Program-made: the position numbers and the translations under genes
Shown: piece by piece, positions 25,887 to 51,172 of the stretch
Layout: each line of letters starts with the position of its first letter
Numbering within the stretch: position 1 is the stretch's first letter
Assembly (NCBI GenBank): GCA_965204035.1
Contig: OZ241964.1
Location: 1,905,251 to 1,969,250, forward strand
Reading direction: 5' to 3'
DNA: 64,000 bases
Origin: Thermodesulfobacteriota bacterium
Lineage (GTDB): Bacteria; Desulfobacterota_D; UBA1144; Nemesobacterales; Nemesobacteraceae
The notes under the pieces: generated by a model
Seen by the model: the letters and a program-made list of their open reading frames with translations, nothing else
What the model was told of the DNA's origin: nothing
Databases searched by the model: none

Positions 25887-26392
25887 GAAAATTCGCCATG
25901 GCCCTTATGCTTCTCTCCCCGCTTCTTTCGGCCTGCGCCGGAGGGTCGTCTCGCTACGGCTGTCCGGCCGAATCGGGCTACTCGTGCAAAAGCGTCTCCG
26001 AGGTTTACGTCGATGCGGCTTCGGGGCAAAAAAGCGGGGAGCGGCCCTTCCCGAAATCTCTTAAGAAGAAAAAAAGCGTACGGGAGGACGCGGGGAGAAA
26101 GTTCCTGAAAGGAAGGATCATCCGCGCGGGAAAAAATCTGCGCAGGCGGGCAGTCAGCAAGGAAGCCGCGCGGGCAGAAAAAGCGATGCCCGTCTATGTT
26201 CCCCCGCCCACGATACGCCTCTGGATAGCCCCGTGGCAGGAGGCCCGGGGCGTCTTTCACTCGCACAAGTACGTGTACGTGATCTCGGGCAGGGGGCGGT
26301 GGATGATCGGGGGAAAGACTGTTCCGCTGGGTGAGTCCCCGGAGGACTATTCGGGGGAAATACGGCTTCTCGGAGCGGAGGGGGCTCCCTGA
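25883..26392 (+). CDS. traV: F-type T4SS lipoprotein TraV
   Basis: Lipobox LLSAC followed by SRYGCPAESGYSC (TraV Cys pair). 169 aa. Order traB-traV-traC. Confidence 0.5.
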   Translation: MRKFAMALMLLSPLLSACAGGSSRYGCPAESGYSCKSVSEVYVDAASGQKSGERPFPKSLKKKKSVREDAGRKFLKGRIIRAGKNLRRRAVSKEAARAEKAMPVYVPPPTIRLWIAPWQEARGVFHSHKYVYVISGRGRWMIGGKTVPLGESPEDYSGEIRLLGAEGAP

Positions 26393-28824
26393 TGGGCGTG
26401 GCCAAGGACCGATTGCGGGATCTTGCGGCGAGGGATTCGCTTTCCTGCTACCTTCCCTACGTGGCCTGGGAGGAGGGGATGTACGTATTGGCCGACGCGT
26501 CGTGCGGCTTCGTATGGGAGATAAACCCGCTTCTTTTCGCCGGGGAAGACACAAAAAGGATCCTGGGCGGAATGCTCGGCGACCGGGTGCTTCCGCCGGG
26601 GACCTCCGTAAAGTTCCACGTGTTTGCCTCCGAGGTCATATCCCCGTTTTTCCCCGGGGAAGGGGCGGCGCGAGGCGAGATCTGCGGGGAGATAGCCGCC
26701 GAGAGAAAACGGCTTTACACCCTCGGGATGCGGGAGAGGGCCGGGGTTCCCGCGAGGGACTTCCGCTTCCTGGTGTCGATCAGGATCCCTCCCGGCCCGG
26801 GGAAGAAAAAGGAGACGGAGACCGAGTGGGAGAAGCACACGGAGGCCGCCCGCAAGCTCGGGGCGAACGTGGCCGGGGTCCTCAGCTCCGCGCAGCTCTA
26901 CCCCCGCGACCTCCCCCCGGCGCAGCTGATCCTCATTCTCCGCGAGGCGCTTAACCCCGACGGGCGCTGGTACGACGATCCCTACTACCTCGGCCGCCCG
27001 GGAGGAGGGCCCTACGACCCGGACAGGGAGATAAGAAGCCAGGTAGTTGACCGCGAGACCGCGATAGAGGTGCGGGCGGGGGAGATTTCGCTCGGGGACG
27101 CGCGCCTTAGGGGATACTCCCCCGCGTCCATGCCCGAGTACTTCTCCCTCGATGAGTTCCATGAGCTGCTTGGAGACCCCCTGCGGGGACTCTCGCAGGT
27201 GCCCGCATACTTTTTCCTGCAGGCGGGCTTTGTAATCCCGGAGAGAAAAAAAGCCTCGGAAATAAGGACCAAGGCCGCCGTGGTGAAGCAGCAGAGCTTC
27301 GGCCTCGTGACGAGATTCATACCGAGGTTAAGGAGGAAGGCAGAGAACTTCGATTTTCTGGTTAACGCCCTTGAGGACGAGGGACTGGTCATGGGGTCGC
27401 TCAGCCTCTTTCTCCGGACCCGGAGCGGAGAGGAGGCGGAGCGGGTAAAGGAGATGGTGACGGGAATATGGAGGGCGCGGAACTTTGATCTTCGCGAGGA
27501 GAAATACGTGGTGCTTCCCCTTCTGCTCGATAGCCTCCCGCTCGGCGGGGAGCCCGCCCTCGCGAAGCTTCTTCGGCGAAACTCGACCATGCAGAGCTCA
27601 GCGGGGGCCTCAATCGTTCCCGTAATGTCAGACTGGAAGGGAAGCGGCTCCGGGCCGCTTACCTTCATATCGAGGAGAGGGCAGGTTATGAAGCTTGATC
27701 TTTTCAGCTCGGCTTCCAATTACAACTGCGCGGTGTTCGCCCAGTCGGGCTCGGGAAAATCCTTTCTCGTCTCGGACATGATCACCGGGTATCTCTCGGA
27801 GGGGGCGCGGGTGTTCGTGATAGACATAGGCCGCTCCTACGAGAAGCTCTGCGGCCTGGTGGGCGGGGAGTTCGTGGTGTTTGACGAGGGAAGCGGGATC
27901 TCGCTTAACCCCTTCTCCCGCATAACGGACATAGACGAGGACATGGAGCTGCTTAAGCCCCTTTTCGCCCAGATGGCCTCTCCGTCTGAGGAAATAGGGG
28001 ACCTCGGGAAATCGCTTCTCGAGGAGGCGATAAAGAAAGCGTGGGAGAAAAACGGCCCCGAGGCGCGGATAGACGACGTGGTGAGCGCTCTCTCGGGCAT
28101 CTCCGATCCGCAGCGGCGCTCTGAGGATCTGGCGCACATGCTCTACGCCTACTCATCCCGCGGGCAGTACGGGCGGTTTTTCGAGGGACCGTCAAACCTC
28201 TCGTTTGAGAGGGACCTCAACGTGCTTGAGCTTGAGGAACTCAAGTCAAAGCCCGAGCTTCAGACCGTCGTGGTGCTCATGATCATCTGGCACATAGAAA
28301 GGGAGATGTATCTCGGGAGCCGCGAGCGGCGAAAGCTCGCGATAATAGACGAGGCGTGGGACCTGCTCGGCGGGGGATTCTCGGGCGAGTTCATAGCGCA
28401 CGGCTACCGAAGGGCGAGGAAGTATAACGGCGCCTTCGTCTCCGTAACCCAGAGCCTGCTTGACTTCTACAGGGCGGGGGACCTCGGGGAATCGGTGCTT
28501 GAGAACTCGGCCTGGATGTTCATGCTCCGCCAGAAGGGCGAAAGCGTAGAGGAGATAAAAAGGGGAGGGAAGCTTCTCCTTGGGGATTACTTCGGGGAGC
28601 TTGTCTCGACGCTCTCTACGCGCCCCGGGGAGTTCTCGGAAGTGTTCATATACAACAGCGAGCGCGGCATGGGCCTCGGGCGGCTGGTCGTCGATCCTTT
28701 TTCCTACTGGACCTACACCACGAACCCCGATGACGTCTCCCTTCTTAACGGATTCATATCGGAAGGGATGGAAGTGCGCGAGGCTATAGAGCGGTGCGTC
28801 GAGATCTCAAGGGAGAGGAGATGA
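26392..28824 (+). CDS. traC: F-type T4SS ATPase TraC (VirB4 family)
   Basis: 810 aa. Walker A AVFAQSGSGKSFLVSDM; Walker B LAIIDEAWDL. Confidence 0.8.
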   Translation: MGVAKDRLRDLAARDSLSCYLPYVAWEEGMYVLADASCGFVWEINPLLFAGEDTKRILGGMLGDRVLPPGTSVKFHVFASEVISPFFPGEGAARGEICGEIAAERKRLYTLGMRERAGVPARDFRFLVSIRIPPGPGKKKETETEWEKHTEAARKLGANVAGVLSSAQLYPRDLPPAQLILILREALNPDGRWYDDPYYLGRPGGGPYDPDREIRSQVVDRETAIEVRAGEISLGDARLRGYSPASMPEYFSLDEFHELLGDPLRGLSQVPAYFFLQAGFVIPERKKASEIRTKAAVVKQQSFGLVTRFIPRLRRKAENFDFLVNALEDEGLVMGSLSLFLRTRSGEEAERVKEMVTGIWRARNFDLREEKYVVLPLLLDSLPLGGEPALAKLLRRNSTMQSSAGASIVPVMSDWKGSGSGPLTFISRRGQVMKLDLFSSASNYNCAVFAQSGSGKSFLVSDMITGYLSEGARVFVIDIGRSYEKLCGLVGGEFVVFDEGSGISLNPFSRITDIDEDMELLKPLFAQMASPSEEIGDLGKSLLEEAIKKAWEKNGPEARIDDVVSALSGISDPQRRSEDLAHMLYAYSSRGQYGRFFEGPSNLSFERDLNVLELEELKSKPELQTVVVLMIIWHIEREMYLGSRERRKLAIIDEAWDLLGGGFSGEFIAHGYRRARKYNGAFVSVTQSLLDFYRAGDLGESVLENSAWMFMLRQKGESVEEIKRGGKLLLGDYFGELVSTLSTRPGEFSEVFIYNSERGMGLGRLVVDPFSYWTYTTNPDDVSLLNGFISEGMEVREAIERCVEISRERR

Positions 28825-29174: not shown

Positions 29175-29661
29175 GTTTCTGCGGGCATGCGCGGGAGCGC
29201 GTGCGGCCGCTTCGGTTTTTCTGGTCCTTATTCTGTTTTCGGGGGCATACCTCTTCGGGATTCGTATCTCGTTTAACGTATCGGGATCGCTTCCCCACAG
29301 GGCGTTTCTCACGGTGCGGGGCGGGGAGATTTCCTGCGGGCCCCGAAGCATAGGGCTTTTTCGCCTGAACGTCCGCAATCCCTACTGGGATTACGGGACG
29401 ATTTTCGCGAAGAGGTTCGTCGGCTGCCCGGGCGATGCGCTAAGGACGCAAGGAAGAGAGTTTTACCTAAACGGCGAGAGAGTGGCCGTCGCAAGCGGAC
29501 ATGATTCAAGAGGAGCGGCCGTCTCAAGCTTCCGGCACGACGGGGTGATTCCCGCCGACAGCTACTTCGTTCTGGGAGACGGCGAGAGAAGCTATGACTC
29601 AAGATACTGGGGGTTTGTAAGAAAATCATGGATAGTCGGGCGTGGGTTTCCCTTGTTTTAG
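29167..29661 (+). CDS. S26-family signal peptidase-like conjugative peptidase (TraF/TrhF-type)
   Basis: C-terminal SYDSRYWGFV matches the S26 SxDSRxxG box. N-terminal TM. Confidence 0.55.
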   Translation: MSEFLRACAGARAAASVFLVLILFSGAYLFGIRISFNVSGSLPHRAFLTVRGGEISCGPRSIGLFRLNVRNPYWDYGTIFAKRFVGCPGDALRTQGREFYLNGERVAVASGHDSRGAAVSSFRHDGVIPADSYFVLGDGERSYDSRYWGFVRKSWIVGRGFPLF

Positions 29662-30251
29662 CCTCGGTTTTTTTTATCCAGTTCTCCCCGGTGCCGACCC
29701 GGGCTTCGGGTAAGGACCTCGGGGTTCACGGGCGCCTCTACGAAATAAGGGAAGAGGACATGCTTTTATATGTGCGGAGAAAAGCGGGGGAAATCTCAAT
29801 GGCGGCGCTTCGGGAAAGCATGGAGAAAAAGCTCGAGGAATCCTACGCGCGGCACTCTTTTGTTTCTCTCGATGTCCCTTCGGCTACGGAAGAGCGGGTA
29901 CGTTATGTCGACCCCTCGGTGAATGTACGAAATCCGCTCTACGACCACACGGGGGCGATGATTTTTCCCGCGGGGGCCGTAAACCCGCTTGATCACGTAT
30001 CGCTTTCAAAAAGCATCCTGGTGCTGAGGGAGGACCAGGTGAAAAGGGCGCTTGAGGAGACGGGCAAAACAGGTGAAAAGGCAATTCTGCTGCTAACCGA
30101 CGGCGATATCCGAAGGGCTTCCTCGCTTGCGGGCCGGATGGTTTACAAGGCAAGTCCTTTCATGCTCAGAAGACTCCAGGTTGAAAAAGTGCCGTCGCTT
30201 GTGACGCAGGAAGGGAGAAGACTCAGGGTGAAAGAAATGGTTTTAAAATGA
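29628..30251 (+). CDS. traW: F-type T4SS protein TraW
   Basis: Signal peptide then DLGVHGRLYEIREEDML, resembling the TraW N-terminus (LGVxGxVYPIxExD). Position after the peptidase. Confidence 0.55.
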   Translation: MDSRAWVSLVLASVFFIQFSPVPTRASGKDLGVHGRLYEIREEDMLLYVRRKAGEISMAALRESMEKKLEESYARHSFVSLDVPSATEERVRYVDPSVNVRNPLYDHTGAMIFPAGAVNPLDHVSLSKSILVLREDQVKRALEETGKTGEKAILLLTDGDIRRASSLAGRMVYKASPFMLRRLQVEKVPSLVTQEGRRLRVKEMVLK

Positions 30252-30265
30252 TTCCGTGTCACTCT

Positions 30266-30661
30266 TTATAGATCGGGATTAGCGAAAAAACTGGCGTTTT
30301 TTGCTAGTTCCAAAGCAAGTGACTTTCTGGCATTTTTCTTATCTGGCCATTTGATAATATTTGCGTGGTTGGGATTGTCTGGGGTAGGATCAGGCACAAC
30401 GCTTAACGACTGCAGAACCACATTATAAACTTTGATATCCGCCCTGCCATGAAGATTCCGAGATTGACCAGCAGCGACCTTCCGCCCAATACCCCAGATT
30501 CTATCTTCGGAAAAATTTAAATGACGGGTAGTTGATAATTCCAAGGAGTCTTCCGGCGGAATGAAGGCATCTTGTTTGACAGTTTGGTCACTTTTACGAT
30601 ACCACTTTGAAGAAATAATATATCTGGCTAAAAGCTCATCATCTGAAATAGAATCCGTCAT
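30266..30661 (-). CDS. hypothetical protein (131 aa), last gene of a 3-gene minus-strand operon
   Basis: 4-bp overlap with the upstream gene. No family recognised. Confidence 0.35.
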   Translation of the reverse strand: MTDSISDDELLARYIISSKWYRKSDQTVKQDAFIPPEDSLELSTTRHLNFSEDRIWGIGRKVAAGQSRNLHGRADIKVYNVVLQSLSVVPDPTPDNPNHANIIKWPDKKNARKSLALELAKNASFFANPDL

Positions 30662-31155
30662 ATATTTTCACTCGTAACATCTTCGATCAATCTTACTAGG
30701 TCCTTTGAAACTTCAAATAAAGCAAAGCCATCTCCATGTCTTCGGTCTCCACCATTTATGGCTGCGAAATAAAGCCGGCCCCCAGGATTGATGCTAATTG
30801 AAATCACCCTGGTAGGAGACCGATACCATTCCAAAGTTATTGCCCCATCCGGTTCAGCACCTATTTCCGGTGATTCAAATCCTAAGGGAAAAGACCAAAG
30901 AAAAATTTTGGCGTGCCGCAAAACCTGTTTTGTTATCGGTTCCGCTCTCTCCCCATCCCAACCTTTCGACGAACATTCTTCAAAAGTGCTTTTCAACTCT
31001 TGGAAAGTTCCCCTACCAATAAGACCAAGGGTATTAGACCTGTGAAGATAATTAGATACTTCCTCCACTTCTTGGTCTATATAGCGTGCAGGGGAAACGC
31101 TCTGACTAGAAGAACCTTGGTCGGCATAACCAGAAATAGCAGGCATACTATTCAC
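30658..31155 (-). CDS. hypothetical protein, paralog A (165 aa)
   Basis: About 55% identical over ~125 aa to the protein encoded at 34717-35133 on the opposite strand (shared ECSS.GWDGERA.P..K.VLR....FL.SFP.G.E.PE.GAEPDGAI.LEWYRSP..VIS.S.NPGG..Y.AAI.G). RBS gaggag. Confidence 0.4.
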   Translation of the reverse strand: MNSMPAISGYADQGSSSQSVSPARYIDQEVEEVSNYLHRSNTLGLIGRGTFQELKSTFEECSSKGWDGERAEPITKQVLRHAKIFLWSFPLGFESPEIGAEPDGAITLEWYRSPTRVISISINPGGRLYFAAINGGDRRHGDGFALFEVSKDLVRLIEDVTSENI

Positions 31156-31915
31156 ACTCCTCTAAAGCTTTCTCTGTCAAACTGCTAAAGAAAACTTTGT
31201 TTTTAACCCAACGCATTTTGTTCATATGTTCAGAAATTCGTAATTCATTAAAACTGAGGCGTTTATCCATAAAGACATCGATATCCAGCAACAACCCAGC
31301 TTCTTGCTGAGTTGTTTGAACAGTTTTTGTAACATTAGCTGAATAGGGAGTTCCCGGAACTTGGAGCACATCTCGATGCAGGTAACCTGATAAAGGCCAG
31401 TTCAAACCTTCGATAGGTAGTGGTGGTCTTTTATAATAATCAGCCAATTCGACTTTCTGTTCCTGTTTGATCGCTAGACGGTTTATAAAGCGTAAATCAA
31501 TTCTCCCAATTTCAACTGGTTTTAATAGTTCGCAGTAAATTTTCCAAAGCCGTAACGCTTCTTGACTAAATTTCTCCCAGTTTTCGTAAGGTTTCAGCCG
31601 ACTAAAAACAAATGAGTCTTTATTAAACTGTACGACATAAAAACTATCTTCCGACTGGCACTTCAAGCCAATGTGGACAAAATCTTTAATTACATTGGTC
31701 CCAGTCTTAGGTGAAAACTGAACTTCGGTTTCCTGAACCGTGTCATGCTTCGGGTAATCAGGCAATCGTTCTTTCAACTGTTTTTGTAGACTCGACTCAT
31801 CCCATTCAGTAGAAGAAGCAACTCGAAGATCAAGAACGGCCTCAACAATTGGCGCTTGGGATAGATGACGAAATTTTTCTTCTAGGTCAATAGTATTTGC
31901 CATAATCTCTGTCAC
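31148..31915 (-). CDS. hypothetical protein (255 aa), first gene of the 3-gene operon
   Basis: 8-bp overlap with the paralog-A start. AT-rich promoter-like region upstream (31916-32320). Confidence 0.4.
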   Translation of the reverse strand: MTEIMANTIDLEEKFRHLSQAPIVEAVLDLRVASSTEWDESSLQKQLKERLPDYPKHDTVQETEVQFSPKTGTNVIKDFVHIGLKCQSEDSFYVVQFNKDSFVFSRLKPYENWEKFSQEALRLWKIYCELLKPVEIGRIDLRFINRLAIKQEQKVELADYYKRPPLPIEGLNWPLSGYLHRDVLQVPGTPYSANVTKTVQTTQQEAGLLLDIDVFMDKRLSFNELRISEHMNKMRWVKNKVFFSSLTEKALEECE

Positions 31916-32322
31916 TCATATGTCTTATTATTACTTTTAAGTTTTTCCCGAATCCCCTTTCCCACAGCATTTCCCGACAAAGCTTCTCCTAATTGATTTC
32001 ACCGTTTAAAATCAAATTCGGGATAAAAGTTGCAGGATGCTAGGCATTTTCGCTCGGTTTTGAGCAGATTCAACAGTAAGTGCAAGATTATTCCGGCCAT
32101 AATCTTATTTTCCCTCGACTCTGGTGGAGAAAGCTTTTTAAGAACCTTTTTTCGTCAGTGAGTCGCTTAGCATCAACTTAACAAGTCTTTTTTGCCTATT
32201 TCCTAGGAATTTCGGGAAAACTAAACTTAATCTTTGTTATATATAATAGTACTACAGTCCGTGGTTTCAAGTAAAAAGGCAAGGTTCCGATGCCGCGAAA
32301 AAATAAAACGGCGACGGAATAA

Positions 32323-33318
32323 TTATACAACAACCCGGTTTCGGTAATTCTCGAGCCATCCAAGAGCTTCCGTCAACAGTTCGTATCCTTCGATCATCGT
32401 GCCGGTATTCACCAAGTGCTCGGCCTCCGCAACTCGGATGGGAACACGGAGTCTGTGCAATAAGTTACCCATGACGCGCACGTCATCAATAAACTGGCTG
32501 CGCTCAATAGCAAACGGCACGATCATATAAGAAATAAAAACCGTCTCCGGTTGTTTTGCAAACCATCGACCTTTAAATGCGTCAATGTGACCTTTAAGCG
32601 ATTTCTCACGACTGTTCCGGCCGGTAGCAACCTGGGCCACCGCAAGCAGAAATCCAGGCAACTCATCCTTGTGAGAACGAACAGCAATTACGTCAAGCTT
32701 ATCGTCCTTTGGTTGCTCCGGAGCCCCCTCTTGCCGTCCGACGCGCCCGTCACTTATGTCTTCCCATATTTCTCTTAATTTATCAAAAAAAGAAGAACTG
32801 TCCGGCCTTGGAGACCCGAATGACCAAGCCTTGCCTCCTATTTCCGCCGCCAAGGCCGCCGTCGCAAAGTATTGGAAGTACTGCCGTAGTTTCCTTACCT
32901 CGGCAGCGTCAGGATGAAGATCAGAATCGGTAAGTATAGTAGATGCAGATTCAAGGTTAGACAAAATGAGACATAAGATATAAGCAGCTCGTCCGAGTGA
33001 ACCATTAACTGTAACCAAACGCAAGATGTGGCCGCCTTTGTCAAGTTGAAAGGGGTAAGAAGCGTTAAGGATTCGTTGACGTTCGTTTATCAGGTTGACA
33101 GTGTCTCCAACAAGCTCCTCTTCGTCTTGCGCTCTTTCAACCCCAGACTCCGTATTGCTTTCCTCCGCACCAATCGACACTCCGTTGGCCAAATTCGACG
33201 TTAGAACTACTCTATCCGGAGAAAAGAAAGCTGAAAGTTCCAGAAAATCAGCGGCCCGGTCCAAGTCAACTGCCGTACCGGTCACCTCATCAATCGGCAA
33301 ATAAACGGGGCTCGTCAT
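32323..33318 (-). CDS. hypothetical protein (331 aa), partner of the ParB-like gene; possible C-terminal HEPN-like R-x6-H (RVMGNLLHR)
   Basis: 4-bp overlap (33315-33318) with the upstream ParB-like gene. No Walker motif. The R-x6-H is seen but weak. Confidence 0.4.
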   Translation of the reverse strand: MTSPVYLPIDEVTGTAVDLDRAADFLELSAFFSPDRVVLTSNLANGVSIGAEESNTESGVERAQDEEELVGDTVNLINERQRILNASYPFQLDKGGHILRLVTVNGSLGRAAYILCLILSNLESASTILTDSDLHPDAAEVRKLRQYFQYFATAALAAEIGGKAWSFGSPRPDSSSFFDKLREIWEDISDGRVGRQEGAPEQPKDDKLDVIAVRSHKDELPGFLLAVAQVATGRNSREKSLKGHIDAFKGRWFAKQPETVFISYMIVPFAIERSQFIDDVRVMGNLLHRLRVPIRVAEAEHLVNTGTMIEGYELLTEALGWLENYRNRVVV

Positions 33319-34433
33319 TCCGCAGCAAGGGCCTCTCGGTTTTTTTTCTGCATTCGCTGATGAACGGTTTCCGCAGTTTCCTTGATATCCTCGGCGACCC
33401 CGAGAAGTGAGTCGTCCCGCCCGTCATAAGCTCTAAGCGACCCCGCCGCATCCTTTATCGCAGTCCGCGCTCGCAACAAAGAAGCAGTAAATCGGCTGTC
33501 CACGGGTTCGACAGCCGCATAAGCCTCATCAAGATTGCGCGACATTTTTAGAATGTGAAGCGCTTCAATATTTTCTAGAACTTCGCCAAGACGCTTGATG
33601 TCCGGATTCTGTGTCCGAATAACCGGCAATACATCGTCCGTACTTGATCCATAGATCCAGAGGAGCAACTCCTTGAGATTGTCCAGTTTTTTACTTTTCA
33701 CCGGATTGGGTTTGGGGTCATATCTTACCCATCTTGAACCGAGACCTAGATATTTCATATATTGGGATCGGCTGAGTGCAGTATAGAGATGCGAGAAGTT
33801 GAATTTGGGGGTGACTCGATCCTCAACATCAAAAAGTTCGTTTTTCTTTGCCTGATCAAGAACATAAATTGCCGATACCATTCGCTTGATCGTGTCATGC
33901 CCGTCGCCGACTGCTTTTGCTATTGTCTTCAGATTATCATCGGATTGTTTGTACCAATCGGCCGCAAACCGGGCCTTGGCGTAAGAATCCCACTTGGCCG
34001 GGCCGTTGACATGTTTGAATCCAATGAAAGACCTAGCAGTCTCCCTGCTGTCAACACAGTACACGGATACCTCATCTAAAGTACCCCGCAGAGATTTAGC
34101 GACGGTCGGAGGGTTGATTGCCAGTTTTTCCGTTTTGAGGATTTTCTTTGCCAGTTTCGGTTCGCGTAGCAGTCGTAGCGCAGCCAAGCGCCTGTTGCCC
34201 TCAAGCACAACCAGCTTATCGCTCCCGGCCTCTCGCATCGCAATCAACGGTTCAATATCAAGATATCCGTTAGAGGAAATTGATTGCAACAGTTCCCCCA
34301 GTTCCGCACTGCGGTACAACTCGGCAATTATCGCCTCATCAGTTGAATCAACCGACTGGCTAATCAGCCGCGGATTCTTATGGTCAAGCTTAAGCTTCTC
34401 GACCGGAATCTTTGAAACCTCGTTCAGTTCCAT
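33315..34433 (-). CDS. ParB/Srx-like N-terminal domain protein with central HTH (372 aa)
   Basis: LKLDHKNPRL...LVVLEGNRRLAALRLL resembles the ParB N-domain box (hhhaGERRwRAak). Putative HTH KTIAKAVGDGHDTIKRMVSAIYVL. No adjacent ParA. Confidence 0.5.
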   Translation of the reverse strand: MELNEVSKIPVEKLKLDHKNPRLISQSVDSTDEAIIAELYRSAELGELLQSISSNGYLDIEPLIAMREAGSDKLVVLEGNRRLAALRLLREPKLAKKILKTEKLAINPPTVAKSLRGTLDEVSVYCVDSRETARSFIGFKHVNGPAKWDSYAKARFAADWYKQSDDNLKTIAKAVGDGHDTIKRMVSAIYVLDQAKKNELFDVEDRVTPKFNFSHLYTALSRSQYMKYLGLGSRWVRYDPKPNPVKSKKLDNLKELLLWIYGSSTDDVLPVIRTQNPDIKRLGEVLENIEALHILKMSRNLDEAYAAVEPVDSRFTASLLRARTAIKDAAGSLRAYDGRDDSLLGVAEDIKETAETVHQRMQKKNREALAAE

Positions 34434-34716
34434 GATAATCCCCCCGAACTTCTGGAATCGGATAAAGAAAAAAGGTTGTTATGCCACCAATGGTTGGGGG
34501 GCGATCGGGATCTGGCAGAAATTCTCAGATCCCATCGCGAGGCCGAACCATGGCTTCGCCGTTACATTATGGACGTGATCAGCGACCTGGAAGAGCGGCC
34601 CGGGCTTGAGAAAGCCAGAAAACCGTCTTGACGCGGGATACTGCCCACGCAGGCGAAAAATGAAGGCTTCTCCAAAAATCAAACGGAAAAATCTGGAGGG
34701 GCAGGAGGTAAACGGC

Positions 34717-35133
34717 ATGACAAGTTTCACTGATAAAGACATCTTCCAGGAACTGGAAAAAGTTTTTCAAGAATGCTCGTCAGACGGCTGGGACGGAGAG
34801 AGAGCGAAACCGGTCTCAAAAGAGGTTCTGCGGAGCACCGTAGCCTTTCTCGAATCTTTTCCCTCCGGCATCGAGCCGCCGGAGACGGGGGCTGAACCCG
34901 ACGGAGCCATATCTCTTGAGTGGTACCGCTCCCCTGAAAAAGTGATTTCAGTCAGCGTCAATCCGGGAGGAGAAGTTTACTACGCGGCTATAATCGGCAC
35001 TCGGCGAAACCATGGAAAGGGTTCGGTTCGCTCCGGCGTCTCGGATAATCTGCCGGCGCTGGTAGAAAAGGTTACGCAAAAGAACGGAGGATCGAGAAAA
35101 ATACAAGAGGGTTTAAACCCAATTTCAAATTGA
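34717..35133 (+). CDS. hypothetical protein, paralog B (138 aa from the internal ATG)
   Basis: Paralog of 30658-31155 in inverted orientation. RBS caggaggtaaacggcATG at 34717; the longer listed ORF (34606) has no RBS. Confidence 0.4.
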   Translation: MTSFTDKDIFQELEKVFQECSSDGWDGERAKPVSKEVLRSTVAFLESFPSGIEPPETGAEPDGAISLEWYRSPEKVISVSVNPGGEVYYAAIIGTRRNHGKGSVRSGVSDNLPALVEKVTQKNGGSRKIQEGLNPISN

Positions 35134-35443
35134 TTTGGCGCCATTCCCTCCCGGCATCGCTCCATGTCATTGAAAGGCTAAACTGCCTGCGCCGTGTGCC
35201 CGGTATCAAACCGCCAAAGAAAGGGTTTTAAGATGATCCTCGATGGCTCGAGCAATGTCACCCGACAGCGGAAGATTTCCCTTCTCCACTCGCCGTAAAC
35301 CTCCCAGAGCTTGAAATATCCCTGCGTATGTGATTTCCAGTATGAGCGGGCAGGTCACATCCTACACTCGGACTGTAACGATCCTTCGGTGCGAATTCAG
35401 CTTTATTTTAAGATCGAATTCACTTATACTTATCATTGATATG

Positions 35444-35860
35444 AAAACGCTTCTGTTCATCGCTGCGCTTTTGATCTGCGCTTGGCCGACAGGTGTTTTG
35501 GCCGACAACCAGACTTCTGAGATTCCCGGGGAGCACTTAAGGCAAAAAGCGGCGGTTTCGCGACCCGCCGATGCGCCCGGCGCCAAATCAAAAGCCTTCA
35601 TACACCCGGATACGGGAGAAATCCTGACCCGCAAGCAGTGGCAGGCCCTCGGCCTCGAAAACGACGAAGCCGAGGCCGCGACGCGCCTCTCTTCCGACGC
35701 CCCCGAACCGGAGAGTGCCCCGACGGTGCTTGAGGGCAGGCAGATCGATCTTGGAAACGGAGACTACGTCATAGTGGTCGATGCCCCCGAATCCGATATG
35801 GTTGAAACCAAGGTGTGGTTTGACGAAGAGGGAAAAGCCCATATCAATTGCAATCACTGA
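35444..35860 (+). CDS. small secreted protein (signal peptide MKTLLFIAALLICAWPTGVLA)
   Basis: Signal peptide. Stop overlaps the start of the metalloprotease gene. Confidence 0.35.
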   Translation, partial: KTLLFIAALLICAWPTGVLADNQTSEIPGEHLRQKAAVSRPADAPGAKSKAFIHPDTGEILTRKQWQALGLENDEAEAATRLSSDAPEPESAPTVLEGRQIDLGNGDYVIVVDAPESDMVETKVWFDEEGKAHINCNH

Positions 35861-38205
35861 GCGCCGTGAAAAAACTTCTCCCCGGGATACTTTTTCTTCT
35901 GCTGGCCGCCATGGCCCCGCTTCGCCCTTGTGTTGCGGTCACGGTCGAGGAAATATACGACGATGACGCAGGTAAGGGGTTCAAGGACGGAACCAGCCTG
36001 ACGCAGACCGAAAAGAATCGTATCTCTCCGAGCGGAAACGACGCGCAGACCTTGGGGGAAGCGAGAACAAAGGCTTTTGAATACGCCACATCTCTTCTCG
36101 AGAGCACTCTGACTAACTCAAGCACGATCAGGATAAGCGCGAAATTCGTGATTTTTTCGGGCCAGGAGAATCCGAACAATCCCGATGAATGCCGACAGAC
36201 TCTAACAGGCCGCACAAGCCTAGCCTCCGCAGGACCGAGAGGCTACGCCTATCCCGGGAGAAGGCTTGACCAAGGAGACGTAAATCGTGTGGGGCTCGGA
36301 ACCGCTTATCCCCACGCGCTTCACGAAGCCATCGGGGGGAGGAACCTCAACTCGCAGGAGGCCGATCTCGCAATATTTTTCAGCGAGTGCGTTCCGTTTC
36401 ATTACGGGTTTACGGGACCGGTGCCGGCCCGTCATGTAGATTTCGTCAGGATTGCCCTGCATGAGATCATGCACGGGATAGGGTTCCTCTCTCAGGTCGG
36501 AAACGACGGAAGTTTTCCTGAACTATCCATTACTGCCTTCAGTACGGTAAACGGGGTAACCACCTCGCGGCAAATCAACATAAAATCGCGGACTATCTAC
36601 GATGAGCAGCTGTATTCGGAGAGCCACGACGATCTTCTGATAAATCTTGGAAACAGAGAGAGAGCGGCGGCGATCATTTCCGGCACCGGCCTTCTCTGGG
36701 AAGGAACCGACGGCGGCAGAAACAGCTGCAGTTACGGGCAGCGGATGACCGAACTCAAAGCAAGCTCCGCCAGGTCCCAAGACGGCAAACCTCGGCTCCA
36801 CGCTCCCTCGGCCTATAGGGACGGCGCATCCGTTTCACACACTCACGATAACGCAGAAGATATCATGGAAGCCCTTTACCCCTTCCCGCAAAACATGGAT
36901 CTCACCTTGGGCATGCTGAAGGACATTGGATGGAGCGTAAGCGCCGATGGTTTCCCGCCCGGCTGCGAGCCTACGGGAATCGGGGTTAGGGTGACAGATT
37001 CCGTAACCACCGAGGGAGGAAAGGAAGCGATGTTCGAGGTAAGGCTTGAATCGGAGCCCACAGAAAACATAGTGATCCCGTTAACGAACAGCGATCCGTC
37101 CGAGGGAACCCTCTCCACGCCCGAGCTCGTGTTCACTCCCCAGGACTGGGATATGCCCCGGGAAGTGACGGTAAGAGGCGTGGACGACGGTTTGAGAGAC
37201 GGGACCCAAGGCTACCTCATAACGCTTGAGGACGCGCGAAGCGGCGACAGGTTCTATAGCGGCTTCACTCCCTCGCCCCGGATCATTTCTCTTAGAAACG
37301 AAGATAACGAACCGCCGCCACCACAGCTACAGCCACCACAGCTACAGCCACCACAGCCACCGCCGCCACAGCCACCGCCGCCAACGGTAACGGTATCTTT
37401 TGATTCATCTTCCTACAGCGTCAGCGAAGGCGAAGCAGTGACTGTGGGGATAACGTTGAGTGCGGATCCTGAGCGTACCGTTACAATCCCGATTGCCGTC
37501 GATGAGGCAACCACTGCCGACTCAGGAGAATATTCCCTGTCTTCGACAAGCGTAACATTCGCAAGCGGCGAGATCTCGAAAAATATCACCCTGACCGCTG
37601 CTGATGATGATGCTGATGATGACGGCAAAACGGTGGTTCTTGCTTTCGGAACACTTCCCCCAAGAGTCTCCAGAGGCACGCAGGACTCCGCCACGGTAAC
37701 CATTTTGGACAATGACGACCCTGACGTATCGGTACAGTTCGCCTCGTCCGCTTACAGCGTCACAGAAGGCGAGACGGTTGCCGTGCAGATAACCCTTAGC
37801 GCGGACCCCGAGCGTACAGTGACAATCCCGATTGCCGTCGATCGGGCAACCACTGCCGCCACCGAGGACTACTCCCTGCAATCGGCAAGCGTCGCGTTTG
37901 AAAGCGGAGAAACTTCGAAGGACGTCACCCTGACCGCCGCGGATGATGACCTCGACGATGACGACGAGAGCGTGGAACTGGGTTTCGGGACACTTCCCGA
38001 AGGAGTCAGTGCGGGAGAAAGAGACCGGACCACGATAACCATCCTAGACAATGACGTGGCGGAAAGCGGAGGAGGCGGGTGCGCCATCGCAACGGAAACA
38101 GGCCATGGGGTTGCCGCGGTGAATCTGCTCCTGATCGTAACTGTCCTGTTTTCTGTCCTCTTGCGTAGCTCAGCAAACCAACCGTGTTACGGCGAAAGCC
38201 GCTAA
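35848..38205 (+). CDS. secreted M8 (leishmanolysin-like) zinc metalloprotease with Pro/Gln linker, two Calx-beta-like repeats and a C-terminal Gly-Cys + TM + basic sorting signal
   Basis: Signal peptide. HEIMHGIGF is the HExxHxxGF zinc motif typical of peptidase M8. PPPPQLQPPQLQPPQPPPPQPPPP linker. Two ~110-aa repeats (VTVSFDSSSYSVSEGEAVTV... / VSVQFASSAYSVTEGETVAV...). C-terminus GGGGCAIATETGHGVAAVNLLLIVTVLFSVLLRS. Confidence 0.5.
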   Translation: MQSLSAVKKLLPGILFLLLAAMAPLRPCVAVTVEEIYDDDAGKGFKDGTSLTQTEKNRISPSGNDAQTLGEARTKAFEYATSLLESTLTNSSTIRISAKFVIFSGQENPNNPDECRQTLTGRTSLASAGPRGYAYPGRRLDQGDVNRVGLGTAYPHALHEAIGGRNLNSQEADLAIFFSECVPFHYGFTGPVPARHVDFVRIALHEIMHGIGFLSQVGNDGSFPELSITAFSTVNGVTTSRQINIKSRTIYDEQLYSESHDDLLINLGNRERAAAIISGTGLLWEGTDGGRNSCSYGQRMTELKASSARSQDGKPRLHAPSAYRDGASVSHTHDNAEDIMEALYPFPQNMDLTLGMLKDIGWSVSADGFPPGCEPTGIGVRVTDSVTTEGGKEAMFEVRLESEPTENIVIPLTNSDPSEGTLSTPELVFTPQDWDMPREVTVRGVDDGLRDGTQGYLITLEDARSGDRFYSGFTPSPRIISLRNEDNEPPPPQLQPPQLQPPQPPPPQPPPPTVTVSFDSSSYSVSEGEAVTVGITLSADPERTVTIPIAVDEATTADSGEYSLSSTSVTFASGEISKNITLTAADDDADDDGKTVVLAFGTLPPRVSRGTQDSATVTILDNDDPDVSVQFASSAYSVTEGETVAVQITLSADPERTVTIPIAVDRATTAATEDYSLQSASVAFESGETSKDVTLTAADDDLDDDDESVELGFGTLPEGVSAGERDRTTITILDNDVAESGGGGCAIATETGHGVAAVNLLLIVTVLFSVLLRSSANQPCYGESR

Positions 38206-38274
38206 CTCAGCCGCGCACCACCCGAAATATCCCTTCTTGCCTTATTTCCTGTTTTGTATTACATTATAGTTATT

Positions 38275-39264
38275 ATGTCCAGGAAAAATATCTTCCTCGC
38301 CCTGCTCATCGGGACTTTTTTCCTGAGTGCCGCAAGGGACGCTGCCGCGTCGGCCAAATGCGGCGGGAGGTTCTTTAACCCGGTTTCGGACGTTGATTGG
38401 GGAGCGATGTTCCCGATAAAGATAGGGGGAGTAGCCATAACACCGGGTGAAAGGACCGACACGGTGAGTCATTTTCCGCTCTGTTTCTGCGGATCCCCCG
38501 TCCCCCGGGTCGGAATAAAGGTTTCGTTCTGGGAACCGGTGAAGCTGGTTGAGGTCGTAAGGCACCCCGGATGCTTCCCTTCGCTCGGGGGCAGAAAGCT
38601 TCCCCTTCCCTCCTTCGCCATGGCGGGGACATACGGGGAGGGAGGCGGGCAGCGTGGGGACAGGACCTCGTTTCTTCACGTCCACCACTTTCTCTACCCG
38701 GTGTTCTCCGTGCTTAACCTTTTTTCAAGTTTCGGGTGCATGACCCAGGGAGGATTCGACCTCGCATACCTCACGGCGTTTGATCCTCTCTGGAGCAACG
38801 ACGAGCTTTCGTTTCTGCTCCACCCCGAGATAGCGCTCGTGGCTAATCCCGCAGCCCAGGCATCGTGCGCCACGGACGCCGTGGCCGCCGCGGGGGGCTT
38901 TGGGATAAACGAGCTTTTCTGGTGCGCGGGATCCTGGGGAAGCGTCTACCCCCATACGGGGAACAACGGGGCCACGGGCGACCTCCCGGCCGTCTACGCG
39001 CTTTCGGCCGTAAAGCTGCTCGCGAAACTGCATAACGAACTTCTGGCGTTTAAGACCACGGGAGAAGGGTCTCTGTGCGCCGCGCAGCCTCACCGCGTAA
39101 TAGTGAAAGACCAGTACAAGCTTCAGCTCGCATTTCCGAAGAACACGCGGGCGTTCCCCATAGGGAGGGCGACGGCCCGCTGGGCTCCCGGCAAATGGTA
39201 CCCCGGGCAGGGAGAAGACTGGGTATGGGTGCTATGGAGAAAAAAAGATTGCTGCCTGCTCTGA
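38275..39264 (+). CDS. traU: F-type T4SS protein TraU
   Basis: Signal peptide then KCGGRFFNPVSDVDWGAMFPIKIGG, matching the TraU N-terminal C.G.F.NP..D..W signature. About 330 aa. Confidence 0.7.
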   Translation: MSRKNIFLALLIGTFFLSAARDAAASAKCGGRFFNPVSDVDWGAMFPIKIGGVAITPGERTDTVSHFPLCFCGSPVPRVGIKVSFWEPVKLVEVVRHPGCFPSLGGRKLPLPSFAMAGTYGEGGGQRGDRTSFLHVHHFLYPVFSVLNLFSSFGCMTQGGFDLAYLTAFDPLWSNDELSFLLHPEIALVANPAAQASCATDAVAAAGGFGINELFWCAGSWGSVYPHTGNNGATGDLPAVYALSAVKLLAKLHNELLAFKTTGEGSLCAAQPHRVIVKDQYKLQLAFPKNTRAFPIGRATARWAPGKWYPGQGEDWVWVLWRKKDCCLL

Positions 39265-50197: not shown

Positions 50198-51172
50198 TCA
50201 AAGGGGATATTTGTTGTCAACTTTATCGTTTGTAATCAGATCCTTATACTTAAGCCTTTTCCCCACAATGCCCTTCGCAAGGAATGCCATCTGGTCTACC
50301 GTGTCCATCTCTCGGACATTGTGGCGACCTGCGAACTCCGTAACGTAACGCTCCAAGTGCTTCGGAGAGATGCGATGGTAGGTTCCGTAATAACCTCTCT
50401 TTAGTTGAGCCCAGAAGGACTCCACGCCGTTTGTGTGTGCCATATCACGGACATACTCTCCTACGCTGTGATTTACGCTTTCATGCTCGAAGGGAAGCCC
50501 GATATAGCTTCTGTGATCGTCCGTGTAAACCATCGCTTTCTGGGAGACATTCGCACTGATAAATCCTTGCAACTCTTCCTTTGTCCTTTCAGGAACAGGC
50601 TTGGCTACCACCTTGTTGGTTTTCCTGTCTTTCATTCCCACTACTACAGTCTTTCCCGAAGGACCCCGAGTGAAGCTACGCTTGTCCGCATGTTTGTTTT
50701 TCTCTTTGCCGCCTATGAAAGTTTCGTCTACTTCTACAGGACCGGTAAAGTCTTCTGACTCGCCTTTCCACGATTCCCTGATACGATGTGCTAAATGCCA
50801 AGCAGACTTCTGCGTGATCTCCAAGTCTCTGTGCAGCTTCATGCTGGATACTCCCTTGAGGGAAGTGGTAACAAGGTAAGTAGCTATCGCCCAAGTCTGG
50901 TATCCAAGATTGGACGCTTCCATGACAGTGCCAGTTCTGACGCTGAATCGTTTGGCGCATTCCTTTTCACGGCAACGATAGGGCATAGTCTTGTGCTTTG
51001 CTCCCGATTGAACATTCGTAGACCCGCAATGCGGGCAAGCGGGTTTTCCTTCCCATCTTTGCTCCGCAAACCATTTCTCCGCAGTCTTGTCGTCGGGGAA
51101 CATCCTGAACAGTTTTGGTAAACTGATTCCTTTTCTGAACGCCTTGCCTGGTGCTTTCTGTTTCTTGCTCAT
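50198..51172 (-). CDS. IS1595-family (ISXO2-like) DDE transposase
   Basis: N-terminal zinc-ribbon KPACPHCGSTN...YRCREKEC; DDE core (MVYTDDHRSY, ...GVESFWAQLKRGYYGTYH) typical of IS1595. Confidence 0.7.
   Translation of the reverse strand: MSKKQKAPGKAFRKGISLPKLFRMFPDDKTAEKWFAEQRWEGKPACPHCGSTNVQSGAKHKTMPYRCREKECAKRFSVRTGTVMEASNLGYQTWAIATYLVTTSLKGVSSMKLHRDLEITQKSAWHLAHRIRESWKGESEDFTGPVEVDETFIGGKEKNKHADKRSFTRGPSGKTVVVGMKDRKTNKVVAKPVPERTKEELQGFISANVSQKAMVYTDDHRSYIGLPFEHESVNHSVGEYVRDMAHTNGVESFWAQLKRGYYGTYHRISPKHLERYVTEFAGRHNVREMDTVDQMAFLAKGIVGKRLKYKDLITNDKVDNKYPL

What the first reader, a model, noticed from the sequence alone, without database searches (positions are those of the whole stretch)
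30658..35133. Inverted paralogous genes bracketing the ParB-like cassette
Proteins at 30658-31155 (minus) and 34717-35133 (plus) share about 55% identity over their whole common length. They lie in inverted orientation about 3.5 kb apart, one on each side of the ParB-like cassette. Paralog A sits in an operon, overlapped by 4 bp with a downstream 131-aa gene. Paralog B stands alone. This could reflect duplication during cargo acquisition, antitoxin/immunity-like paralogs (one orphaned), or recombination substrates that invert or exchange the cassette.
Basis: seen in the sequence. Interest (0 to 1): 0.55.

Follow-up and report, generated by a model that had tools for sequence, protein, structure and literature searches.

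The report
Toxin-operon gene and its orphan cousin
The two inverted look-alike genes are real but are not a local duplication. One is the middle gene of a mobile three-gene operon that ends in a predicted ADP-ribosyltransferase-like toxin. The other is a shortened stand-alone relative kept at one fixed spot in a family of conjugative elements, and it may work as a portable antidote.

Summary
A (30658-31155, minus) and B (34717-35133, plus) share 60% identity over 117 aa (E 4e-52).

- At DNA level the cores are 63% identical, and the longest exact match is 10 nt.
- In a tree, A and B fall in different clades, each with 200/200 bootstrap support. They are neither an in-situ duplication nor recombination substrates.

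A is the middle gene of a three-gene operon, TIGR04255 -> A -> 131-aa gene, with abutting or overlapping start and stop codons. I saw this operon in 22 of the 26 loci from the genome scan, across several phyla, and in a P2-like Ralstonia phage.
- I read A as its antitoxin or immunity partner.

B belongs to a short subfamily of about 32 clusters that lacks A's N-terminal ~47 residues.
- It has no partner gene and is under purifying selection (dN/dS 0.18-0.35).
- It always lies between traW and traU in related F-type conjugative elements of Thermodesulfobacteriota/Dadabacteria.

The "bracketing" comes from successive cargo insertions between traW and B. One insertion truncated B's upstream neighbour (remnant at 34500-34628).

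That B neutralises such toxins, as an orphan antitoxin or anti-defence gene, is an inference and was not tested.

The parts
30266..30661 (-). g131: 131-aa predicted ADP-ribosyltransferase-fold protein, the putative toxin/effector and last gene of the three-gene operon.
30658..31155 (-). Paralog A: 165 aa from the GTG start (162 aa from the ATG at 31146, the start used in databases). Middle gene of the operon and putative antitoxin/immunity partner of g131.
31148..31915 (-). TIGR04255-family protein (255 aa), first gene of the operon. Role unknown; a sensor, regulator or stabiliser role is inferred.
   Evidence: NCBIfam TIGR04255: 122.8 bits against a cut-off of 30, E 2e-35. Found upstream of A in 22 loci. 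Elsewhere it pairs with unrelated downstream genes. No PDB relative by sequence profile.
31916..32270 (-). Promoter-like site and a conserved non-coding leader of about 330 nt for the three-gene operon.
   Evidence: Promoter-like TTGAAA-16-TATTAT at 32270-32243. The leader DNA is conserved in five loci although indels break the reading frames. RNAalifold predicts 88 pairs, 11 with compensatory changes, from only 5 sequences. No Rfam match.
32323..33318 (-). 331-aa gene, second gene of the independent ParB-like cassette. Not part of the paralog system.
   Evidence: phrog_14650, E 3e-26. 4-bp overlap with the ParB-like gene. No homologue was found beside A or B in any other locus.
33315..34433 (-). 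ParB-N-domain protein (372 aa), first gene of the independent cassette that lies between the paralogs.
   Evidence: PADLOC PD-Lambda-5_A, E 3e-24, covering residues 5-167 only. phrog_3694, E 3e-89. Homologues lie in P2-like phages. 35-36% identical homologues lie in L007 and L025 without the A operon.
34500..34628 (+). Remnant (C-terminal 43 aa) of the 'up157' gene that precedes B in related elements. It marks the right-hand junction of the inserted cargo.
   Evidence: tblastn gives 93% identity to L037 residues 139-181. DNA homology to the L037 backbone (90.8%) starts at about 34498. The full gene is present upstream of B in L037, L038 and L039.
34717..35133 (+). Paralog B: 138-aa short-type homologue of A that lacks A's N-terminal ~47 residues. 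A conserved orphan of this family of conjugative elements.
   Evidence: AGGAGG lies 8 nt upstream of the ATG. About 32 clusters of 123-148 aa were found. In ten related elements (L008, L025-L028, L037-L039 plus the window; L007 fragment) it lies between traW and traU. dN/dS against orthologues is 0.18-0.35. The clade is monophyletic in 200/200 bootstraps.
35209..35286 (-). Remnant of the 3' end of hipA. In related elements hipBA lies convergent to B; it is deleted here.
   Evidence: tblastn with L008 HipA residues 381-406 gives 69% identity, E 2e-6. Intact hipBA lies next to B in L008, L026, L028, L038 and L039.
29628..30251 (+). traW (F-type T4SS), the left border of the cargo hot spot.
   Evidence: TIGR02743 TraW, E 2e-28. 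The 14-nt traW-stop/g131-stop junction is homologous in the window, L011 and L018.

Best explanation
The window carries an integrated F-type conjugative element. It holds a T4CP, an HD-domain protein, TraC, TraW, TraU, TraN, TraF, TraH and TraG. Its traW-traU interval is a hot spot for cargo.

The ancestral content of that interval was up157 -> B, then convergent hipBA, then a small secreted protein, a Calx-beta protein and traU. Two independent modules were later inserted between traW and B.

(1) A low-GC three-gene operon, TIGR04255 -> A -> g131. It was acquired once next to traW in an ancestor shared with L011 and L018.
(2) A ParB-N/331-aa cassette. Its insertion cut up157 down to its last 43 codons.

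A and B therefore lie inverted around the ParB cassette by accident of insertion order.

Inferred function:
- g131 is a small NAD-using ADP-ribosyltransferase-fold toxin.
- A, translated just before it from an overlapping stop/start, is its protein antitoxin or immunity factor.
- TIGR04255, translationally coupled upstream, is a third component that controls or stabilises A. This would be a tripartite toxin-antitoxin or abortive-defence module.
- B keeps the conserved core of A (WDG, AEPDG-x3-EW, NPGG) but has lost the N-terminal extension and both partners. It is maintained by selection in the element family.
- The most likely role for B is a stand-alone neutraliser of g131-type toxins. It would protect the element or its new host against such operons, whether chromosomal (for example L001 in Dadabacteria) or carried on competing elements.

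Shown: homology, operon architecture, fold of g131, phylogeny, insertion history, purifying selection.
Inferred: toxicity of g131, neutralisation by A, any activity of B, role of TIGR04255.
For: Homology between A and B.

Operon conservation: of the 26 genome-scan loci, 22 carry TIGR04255-A-g131 in Thermodesulfobacteriota/Dadabacteria, Planctomycetota, Omnitrophota, Atribacteria, Syntrophia and Spirochaetales. L036 (Flavobacteriales) has a TIGR04255-like gene and A without a detected g131, and L034 (a short Taylorbacteria contig) has A and g131 only. A homologous operon lies in the P2-like Ralstonia phage YO139_2 (tblastn 4e-22; hhalign 2.5e-5 and 5.4e-5).

g131 has an ART fold: from a model with pLDDT 94.5. 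R13 lies in strand 1 and S43-x-T45 in strand 2, both invariant.

A as partner of g131:
- 4-bp overlap.
- The two-gene variant L031 has a ribbon-helix-helix-like N-terminus on A and no TIGR04255.
- P0325 has N-terminal RHH-type matches below threshold (DUF6364 2.5e-4, PSK_trans_fac, RHH_1).
- P0286 is an in-frame A-g131 fusion.
- A's weak structural neighbours include TriTu and the AvrPphF-ORF1 chaperone. g131's neighbours include the cognate partners TreTu/TreX and AvrPphF-ORF2.

Defence or mobile context: next to a type I R-M system (L005), in hot spots of conjugative elements, and in a P2-like phage. There are weak PADLOC PDC-M32A/B matches.

B as a conserved orphan. dN/dS is 0.18-0.35. The clade has 200/200 support. 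Three complete chromosomes with a B-carrying element (OZ252213, OZ242322, OZ245933) gave no A-type hit in the scan.

Insertion history: up157 remnant and hipA remnant; shared traW/g131 junction and leader; three layers of GC content.

Precedent: orphan antitoxins on conjugative elements have been proposed to inhibit host or competitor TA-type defences (PMC11541004). A tripartite ART-toxin defence system, CmdTAC, has been characterised (PMC11618068).
Against: - No experiment and no complex model supports A-g131 or B-g131 binding.
- g131 lacks an invariant Glu where the ART catalytic Glu usually sits; N96-P-N98-H99 is there instead. It matches no Pfam ART family.
- If A's missing N-terminal helix is the toxin-binding part, B could not neutralise anything.
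- The A core also occurs without g131: TIGR04255 -> short A -> AAA ATPase in L043, and 542 aa -> short A in L044. Its partner is therefore not always an ART.
- L018 carries the operon with no B.
- B lies among tra genes, not in a demonstrated leading region.
- The RHH matches are below Pfam thresholds.
- P0286 could be a frameshift artefact.
Confidence: 0.6

Rival explanations
1. The A/B core is not an antitoxin. It is a sensor or adaptor domain, for example one that binds an invader protein or a nucleotide or NAD-derived ligand, and it works with variable effectors. On this view B is a stand-alone sensor or decoy, or it works with other genes of the element such as up157 or HipBA.
For: The core pairs with non-ART partners in L043 (AAA ATPase) and L044 (542-aa protein). 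In PDC-M32A a similar segment sits at the C-terminus of a 375-aa protein. The family has many invariant polar residues. B is directly preceded by up157 in L037-L039 and is convergent with hipA in most elements.
Against: In 24 of the 26 genome-scan loci the core is immediately followed by g131. RHH-fused and g131-fused variants fit an antitoxin better. B persists where up157 is absent (L008, L025, L026, L028) or truncated (the window), and where hipBA is deleted (the window, L037).
Confidence: 0.22
2. B is a functionless relic: the 5'-truncated leftover of an old operon copy that hitch-hikes in the element.
For: Truncated orphans do arise by decay. L014, in the chromosome of a close relative, is a 5'-truncated copy 81% identical to A and has no partners. 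B lacks the N-terminal region and both partner genes.
Against: About 32 clusters of the short type keep an intact ORF with the same start position. dN/dS is 0.18-0.35 at dS up to 1.2. All family-invariant residues are kept. It has a strong Shine-Dalgarno sequence. It is retained in ten elements whose surrounding cargo is completely different.
Confidence: 0.1
3. A and B arose by local duplication when cargo was captured, and they serve as inverted homologous arms that invert or exchange the ParB-like cassette.
For: Inverted orientation about 3.5 kb apart around a self-contained two-gene cassette.
Against: DNA identity is 63% and the longest exact match is 10 nt, far below what homologous recombination needs. 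A and B are never sisters (0/200). The ParB-like cassette occurs next to B without A (L007, L025). The A operon occurs without the cassette (L011, L018). No recombinase gene lies in 30.2-35.3 kb.
Confidence: 0.03

Closest known systems
PADLOC candidate defence system PDC-M32 (M32A about 375 aa, M32B about 123 aa)
   Same: g131 and 12 of 60 of its homologues match the PDC-M32B model (best E 4e-5). A, B and the phage-borne A-like protein match the C-terminal 260-345 region of PDC-M32A (E 1e-4 to 5e-3). Both occur in mobile or defence contexts.
   Different: The matches are weak and partial. PDC-M32 has two genes, and its A component is more than twice as long. The TIGR04255 protein does not match PDC-M32A. 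In the library I searched, PDC-M32 appeared only as a PADLOC annotation in one paper on prophages, which gives no function for it.
CmdTAC and other toxin-antitoxin-chaperone (TAC) systems
   Same: A three-gene module with an ADP-ribosyltransferase-type toxin, a protein antitoxin and a third protein. In CmdTAC the third protein controls antitoxin stability and senses infection (PMC11618068). This is the closest 'works like' model.
   Different: No sequence relationship was found. No PADLOC or Pfam hit to CmdT, CmdA or a SecB-like chaperone appeared. The gene order here is third component-antitoxin-toxin. TIGR04255 is about 250 aa, and its fold was not determined.
ART-fold toxin/antitoxin and toxin/immunity pairs: Xre-RES, MbcTA, ParST, DarTG, Tse2-Tsi2, TreTu-TriTu
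   Different: g131 (131 aa) is smaller and lacks the canonical R-S-E or H-Y-E glutamate. A matches no known antitoxin family by sequence. An extra TIGR04255 gene is present.
Orphan antitoxin or immunity genes on mobile elements (anti-addiction or anti-defence)
   Same: B is a partner-less homologue of a putative antitoxin and is conserved on a conjugative element. Orphan antitoxins are over-represented on conjugative elements and have been proposed to disarm host or competitor TA-type systems (PMC11541004).
   Different: Those cases lie in plasmid leading regions. B lies between traW and traU, and no oriT or leading region was mapped here. No activity of B has been shown.

Membership tests
TIGR04255 -> A -> g131 three-gene operon (unnamed, defined here) | First gene matches NCBIfam TIGR04255 above its cut-off | tested here: met
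   122.8 bits against a cut-off of 30, E 2e-35, profile positions 2-250 of 252.
TIGR04255 -> A -> g131 three-gene operon (unnamed, defined here) | Same gene order on one strand with abutting or overlapping stop/start codons, recurring in unrelated genomes | tested here: met
   Window coordinates. The same order is seen in 22 of the 26 genome-scan loci, in the loci found by protein look-up (L001-L006) and in a Ralstonia phage.
Short orphan (B-type) subfamily | Starts at the core (no N-terminal ~47 aa), has no TIGR04255 or g131 neighbour, and lies between traW and traU of the F-type element | tested here: met
   Alignment; monophyly 200/200; contexts.
ADP-ribosyltransferase (ART) superfamily, for g131 | ART fold (split beta-sheet NAD-binding core) | tested here: met
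ADP-ribosyltransferase (ART) superfamily, for g131 | Catalytic triad R-S-E or H-Y-E | tested here: inconclusive
   Invariant R13 lies in strand 1 and S43-x-T45 in strand 2. No invariant Glu precedes strand 5; N96-P-N98-H99 sits there. The positions were not superposed on a template.
ADP-ribosyltransferase (ART) superfamily, for g131 | Sequence-profile match to a curated ART/RES/DarT family | tested here: not met
   No Pfam or NCBIfam hit. Only a sub-threshold DUF7886 match in one homologue. The PDB profile search was negative.
Type II toxin-antitoxin system | Antitoxin gene directly upstream of, and overlapping, the toxin gene | tested here: met
   ATGA overlap at 30658-30661. The overlap is conserved in the loci.
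Type II toxin-antitoxin system | Antitoxin carries a DNA-binding domain (RHH, HTH or similar) | tested here: inconclusive
   None was detected in A or B. RHH-like N-termini appear in L031 and P0325, but only below Pfam thresholds.
Type II toxin-antitoxin system | Toxin arrests growth and antitoxin neutralises it by binding | not testable with these tools
   Needs expression and binding assays or a multimer model.
PADLOC PDC-M32 | Full-length matches to the M32A and M32B models in a two-gene locus | tested here: not met
   A and B match only positions about 270-339 of 375 in M32A, at E 1e-3 to 5e-3. g131 matches M32B at 7e-4. The locus has three genes.
CmdTAC / TAC systems | SecB-like chaperone plus CmdT/CmdA homologues | tested here: not met
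   None of the three proteins hit a PADLOC or Pfam model of that kind at E <= 0.1.
PD-Lambda-5 (for the ParB-like cassette between the paralogs) | Both the A and B components are present | tested here: not met
   The 372-aa protein matches PD-Lambda-5_A only over its N-terminal ~165 residues (E 3e-24). The 331-aa protein matches no PD-Lambda-5_B model.
Invertible DNA segment or recombination cassette | Near-identical inverted repeats and a nearby site-specific recombinase | tested here: not met
   63% DNA identity with a longest exact match of 10 nt. No long inverted repeat. No recombinase domain among the cassette proteins.

The most novel reading that the evidence does not exclude
B-type proteins would be an anti-defence (or anti-addiction) family that a lineage of conjugative elements derived from the antitoxin of an uncharacterised, widespread tripartite ART-toxin system, TIGR04255-A-g131. 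By shedding the N-terminal control segment, B would become a constitutive, partner-independent antidote. It would disarm such systems in recipients or on rival elements. In this window the element carries both the weapon and the generic antidote.
Probability: 0.3. Interest if true: 0.65.

Novelty: new variant of a known kind. Interest (0 to 1): 0.5.

Why it matters
If the reading holds, three things follow.

1. It gives a function to a large protein family that has no Pfam entry. The A-core profile finds 4575 cluster representatives.
2. It gives a first functional context to the "sporadic" TIGR04255 family, as parts of an ART-toxin module. That module is spread across many poorly studied phyla and occurs in a P2-like phage.
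3. It gives a concrete, testable case of a conjugative element fixing a stripped-down antitoxin homologue at a cargo hot spot.

The third point bears on how mobile elements cope with toxin-based defences. It also shows how to recognise anti-defence genes by their homology to defence components.

The practical lesson for genome scans is that inverted paralogs around a cassette need not mark a recombination device. Here they record the order of insertions.

Tried and rejected
**Searches that found nothing**
- Pfam and NCBIfam gave nothing for A, B or g131.
- PDB sequence searches, with single sequences and with profiles, were negative for all three operon proteins.
- The afdb50 library was unavailable.
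- tblastn of A and g131 against plasmids, and of g131 against phages, found nothing.
- A scan of viral contigs with the A alignment found nothing.
- Literature searches for TIGR04255 and DUF7886 found nothing.
- Rfam found nothing in 29.5-36 kb.

**Readings considered and rejected**
- The Crinalium and Thermus plasmid genes downstream of TIGR04255 are not A or g131 homologues.
- B is not functionally tied to the ParB-like gene. In L007 they are adjacent, but L025 shows the same cassette separated from B by other cargo.
- B does not depend on up157 or hipBA, because B persists without them.
- The ORF after B in L037 is not a real gene. It is a composite of antisense hipA and a traW 3' fragment.

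**Look-ups that failed**
- Exact look-ups of the window's own A and B proteins in the contig index found nothing, so the source record could not be fetched.

**Not done**

Full report
**1. Observation**

ORF listing shows A at 30658-31155 (minus strand, 165 aa from a GTG start). Databases start it at the ATG three codons in, giving 162 aa. B lies at 34717-35133 (plus strand, 138 aa).

- BLASTP gives 70/117 identities (60%), no gaps, E 4e-52.
- At DNA level the similarity is confined to the coding cores. Identity is 63% over 351 codon-aligned bases, 44% at third positions, and the longest exact match is 10 nt.
- The repeat finder reported no long inverted repeat between the two genes.

The paralogy is therefore real and ancient. 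It is a similarity of proteins, not of DNA.

**2. Setting**

The window is part of an integrated F-type conjugative element. Genes detected:
- a coupling protein (19392-20840) and an HD-domain protein (20804-22237);
- TraC (26392-28824) and TraW (29628-30251);
- a TraU homologue (38254-39264, 92% identical to the Pfam-TraU gene of L008).

In the related loci L008 and L037 the order continues as TrbC, TraN, TraF, TraH and TraG.

GC content drops from 57-65% to 40-51% between 30 and 35 kb. Close relatives come from MAGs labelled Thermodesulfobacteriota or Candidatus Dadabacteria, with genomes of about 2 Mb.

**3. What A belongs to**

A's stop overlaps the start of a 131-aa gene (g131, 30266-30661) by 4 bp. 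A's start lies 1-8 nt from the stop of a 255-aa gene (31148-31915). That gene matches NCBIfam TIGR04255 at 122.8 bits against a cut-off of 30.

I fetched homologues of A and their contexts and scanned one genome per species. I then ran tblastn with the window's proteins on every locus.

The order TIGR04255 -> A -> g131 recurs in 22 of the 26 genome-scan loci. The taxa are Thermodesulfobacteriota/Dadabacteria, Planctomycetota, Omnitrophota, Atribacteria, Syntrophia and Spirochaetales. Two further loci are incomplete cases. L036 (Flavobacteriales) has a TIGR04255-like gene and A but no detected g131. L034 (a 1.5-kb contig from a Taylorbacteria MAG) has A and g131 only.

The contexts differ:
- a chromosomal site beside rpmG (L001);
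- beside a type I restriction system (L005);
- beyond traG of a conjugative element (L004);
- in the accessory end of a P2-like Ralstonia phage (tblastn 4e-22 for the first gene; hhalign 2.5e-5 and 5.4e-5 for the other two).

The operon is therefore a self-contained mobile module. A profile of the A family finds 4575 cluster representatives at E of 1e-3 or lower. In the listed top 150, almost all are 150-170 aa long. There is no Pfam family for it.

**4. What the operon proteins look like**

- RES-domain toxins (VPA0770, MbcT, ParT, Res), TreX and TreTu, DarT, Tne2;
- Scabin and the pertussis-like and heat-labile toxins.

The invariant R13 lies in the first strand and S43-x-T45 in the second, as in R-S-E enzymes. 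No invariant glutamate precedes the fifth strand; N96-P-N98-H99 sits there. I therefore call the fold with confidence and leave the chemistry open: NADase, transferase or phosphotransferase-like.

TIGR04255 has no PDB relative by profile.

**5. Evidence that A is the partner of g131**

- The overlap is near-constant.
- A two-gene variant (L031) has no TIGR04255 gene. Its A-like protein carries an N-terminal segment with a ribbon-helix-helix pattern and overlaps a g131 homologue by 4 bp.
- Another family member (P0325) has concordant but sub-threshold hits to RHH-type antitoxin families at its N-terminus: DUF6364 2.5e-4, PSK_trans_fac 2.5e-3, RHH_1 0.011.
- One representative (P0286) is an in-frame fusion of the A core to a g131-like sequence. 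It could also be a frameshift artefact.
- PADLOC's candidate system PDC-M32 matches weakly. g131 and 12 of 60 homologues hit M32B. A, B and the phage copy hit the C-terminal part of M32A.

There are caveats. The A core also occurs as TIGR04255 -> short A -> AAA ATPase (L043) and as 542 aa -> short A (L044). TIGR04255 also occurs with unrelated downstream genes.

**6. What B belongs to**

B aligns from its second residue with A's residue 48 onward and keeps all family-invariant residues. A search with B found about 32 clusters of 123-148 aa with the same short form.

Every one whose context I could read lies in a relative of this conjugative element, between traW and the small secreted protein/Calx-beta protein/traU block. 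These are L008, L025, L026, L027, L028, L037, L038 and L039; L007 is a 3-kb fragment.

None has a TIGR04255 or g131 gene beside it. In the minimal element L028, B directly follows traW.

The cargo between traW and B differs in every element:
- AAA_21 ATPase pairs, an IS element, and a Dam-like methylase with a ParB-like gene;
- DUF3800, HEPN/GmrSD, SocA-Panacea, SIR2, NotI R-M and RelB.

B therefore marks the distal edge of a defence-cargo hot spot.

In an NJ tree of the core, the short clade is monophyletic in 200/200 bootstraps. A groups with operon copies in 200/200, and A and B are never sisters. Between B orthologues dN/dS is 0.18-0.35 at dS of 0.3-1.2. Between A and B, dS is saturated. 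B has an AGGAGG 8 nt upstream of its ATG.

For contrast, L014 in a close relative's chromosome is a genuine decayed copy. It is 5'-truncated, 81% identical to A, and has no partner genes.

**7. How the present arrangement arose**

Three elements (L037, L038, L039) have a 139-181-aa gene ('up157', weakly HEAT-like) directly upstream of B. The window keeps only its last 43 codons (34500-34628, 93% identical to L037).

DNA homology to the L037 backbone (90.8%) begins at about 34498 and runs through B to 35287. Downstream of B the window keeps the last 26 codons of hipA (35209-35286). In most relatives hipBA is intact there.

On the other side, the 14-nt junction between the traW stop and the g131 stop is homologous in the window, L011 and L018. 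So is the ~330-nt leader upstream of TIGR04255.

- L011 and L018 have the operon but no ParB-like cassette.
- L025 and L007 have a ParB-like cassette and B but no operon.
- GC content is layered: operon 39-44%, ParB cassette 49%, B 51%, backbone 54-59%.

The simplest history has three steps. B and up157 were resident. The operon was inserted next to traW. The ParB/331-aa cassette then landed between them and truncated up157. The "bracketing" is a by-product of that order.

**8. Mechanism proposed**

Shown: homology, architecture, fold of g131, phylogeny, selection and insertion history.

Inferred:
- g131 is an NAD-dependent toxin.
- A binds and neutralises it.
- TIGR04255 controls or stabilises A. 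This would be analogous to the third component of CmdTAC, where an ART toxin is released when the antitoxin is lost (PMC11618068).
- B, which lacks the N-terminal segment and both partners, acts as a constitutive neutraliser of g131-type toxins met in recipients or on rival elements.

Related hosts do carry chromosomal copies of the operon (L001/L013 in Dadabacteria). Three complete chromosomes with a B-carrying element showed no A-type gene in the scan. B's function therefore cannot depend on a resident cognate toxin. Orphan antitoxins on conjugative elements have been proposed to play this role (PMC11541004).

I put about 0.85 on the evolutionary and architectural account. I put about 0.6 on A/g131 being an antitoxin/toxin pair, and about 0.3-0.4 on B being a neutraliser.

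**9. Comparison with known systems and novelty**

The closest catalogued relative is PADLOC candidate PDC-M32, and membership is not met. The closest working models are CmdTAC/TAC systems and the ART-fold toxin-antitoxin pairs (Xre-RES, MbcTA, ParST, DarTG). Sequence-level membership is not met for any of them.

I rate the module a new variant of a known kind: a toxin-antitoxin or defence module with an ART-fold effector. B is a possible new example of an orphan antitoxin on a conjugative element. The recombination-device reading is rejected.

Interest is moderate (0.5). The families are large and uncharacterised, and the hypothesis is directly testable, but nothing here is yet beyond inference from sequence and predicted structure.

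Noticed in passing
window 31916-32270 (minus strand): A non-coding leader of about 330 nt lies between a promoter-like site and the TIGR04255 start. It is conserved at DNA level in five loci (window, L011, L018, L001, L004). RNAalifold predicts 88 pairs, 11 with compensatory changes. There is no Rfam match. It may be a cis-regulatory RNA of the operon.
   Followed up: partly
window 33315-34433 and 32323-33318 (minus strand): A ParB-N-domain protein (372 aa) and an overlapping 331-aa gene form a separate two-gene cassette. The first matches PADLOC PD-Lambda-5_A only in its N-terminal ~165 residues, and phrog_3694 at 3e-89. The second matches phrog_14650. Homologues lie in P2-like phages (Wphi gp98, Yersinia HQ103, vB_EcoM-12474). 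It is probably an uncharacterised defence-type cassette.
   Followed up: partly
window 34500-34628 (+) and 35209-35286 (-): Two gene remnants flank B. One is the last 43 codons of a weakly HEAT-like gene that precedes B in L037-L039. The other is the last 26 codons of hipA. They date the insertions and deletions at this hot spot.
   Followed up: yes
L037 10831-11034: A second copy of the last 68 codons of traW (87% identical) lies after B and a hipA remnant, about 9 kb from the intact traW. It may be the footprint of how cargo enters this hot spot.
   Followed up: no
L037 and L004 (P0375 and P0037 both list a 146,621-bp contig as their longest): Another element appears to carry both a B-type orphan (between traW and traU) and a complete TIGR04255-A-g131 operon (just beyond traG). 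I infer that both loci belong to one contig from the matching contig length and the shared TraN-TraF-TraH-TraG block. If so, co-residence of the operon and the orphan is not unique to this window.
   Followed up: partly
L014 7965-8366 (OZ219878.1, chromosome of a close relative): A 5'-truncated orphan copy, 81% identical to A, lies beside murQ/anmK with no TIGR04255 or g131. It is a decayed operon remnant and is distinct from the B-type clade.
   Followed up: partly
L043 29-2984; L044 3361-5363: These are other architectures of the A core: TIGR04255 (hhalign 2e-67) -> 126-aa short A-like -> classic AAA ATPase -> 235 aa, and 542-aa protein -> 120-aa short A-like. Neither has a g131 homologue.
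   Followed up: partly
P0286 (238 aa, metagenomic): A single ORF joins an A-like core to a g131-like N-terminal part. It is either a natural fusion or a frameshift at the 4-bp overlap.
   Followed up: no
window 14128-14982 (+): A protein with a CAP12/Pycsar-effector-type TIR domain (Pfam E 4e-37). This is further defence-like cargo on the same element.
   Followed up: no
window 9719-13735 (-): A 1338-aa protein whose first 65 residues match the MqsA-antitoxin HTH region (E 8e-17). The rest is unassigned.
   Followed up: no
window 35848-38205 (+), repeats at 37317-37385 and 37387-38007: A secreted 785-aa Calx-beta protein is conserved next to traU in all related elements. It contains a proline/glutamine-rich run encoded by 15-nt repeats, and two 282-nt repeat copies 73% identical that lie 339 nt apart.
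   Followed up: no
window 50198-51205 (-): An IS1595-family transposase (Pfam E 2e-40) lies in a second low-GC stretch (48-52 kb) just beyond traG and an AAA_14/DUF4143 gene.
   Followed up: no
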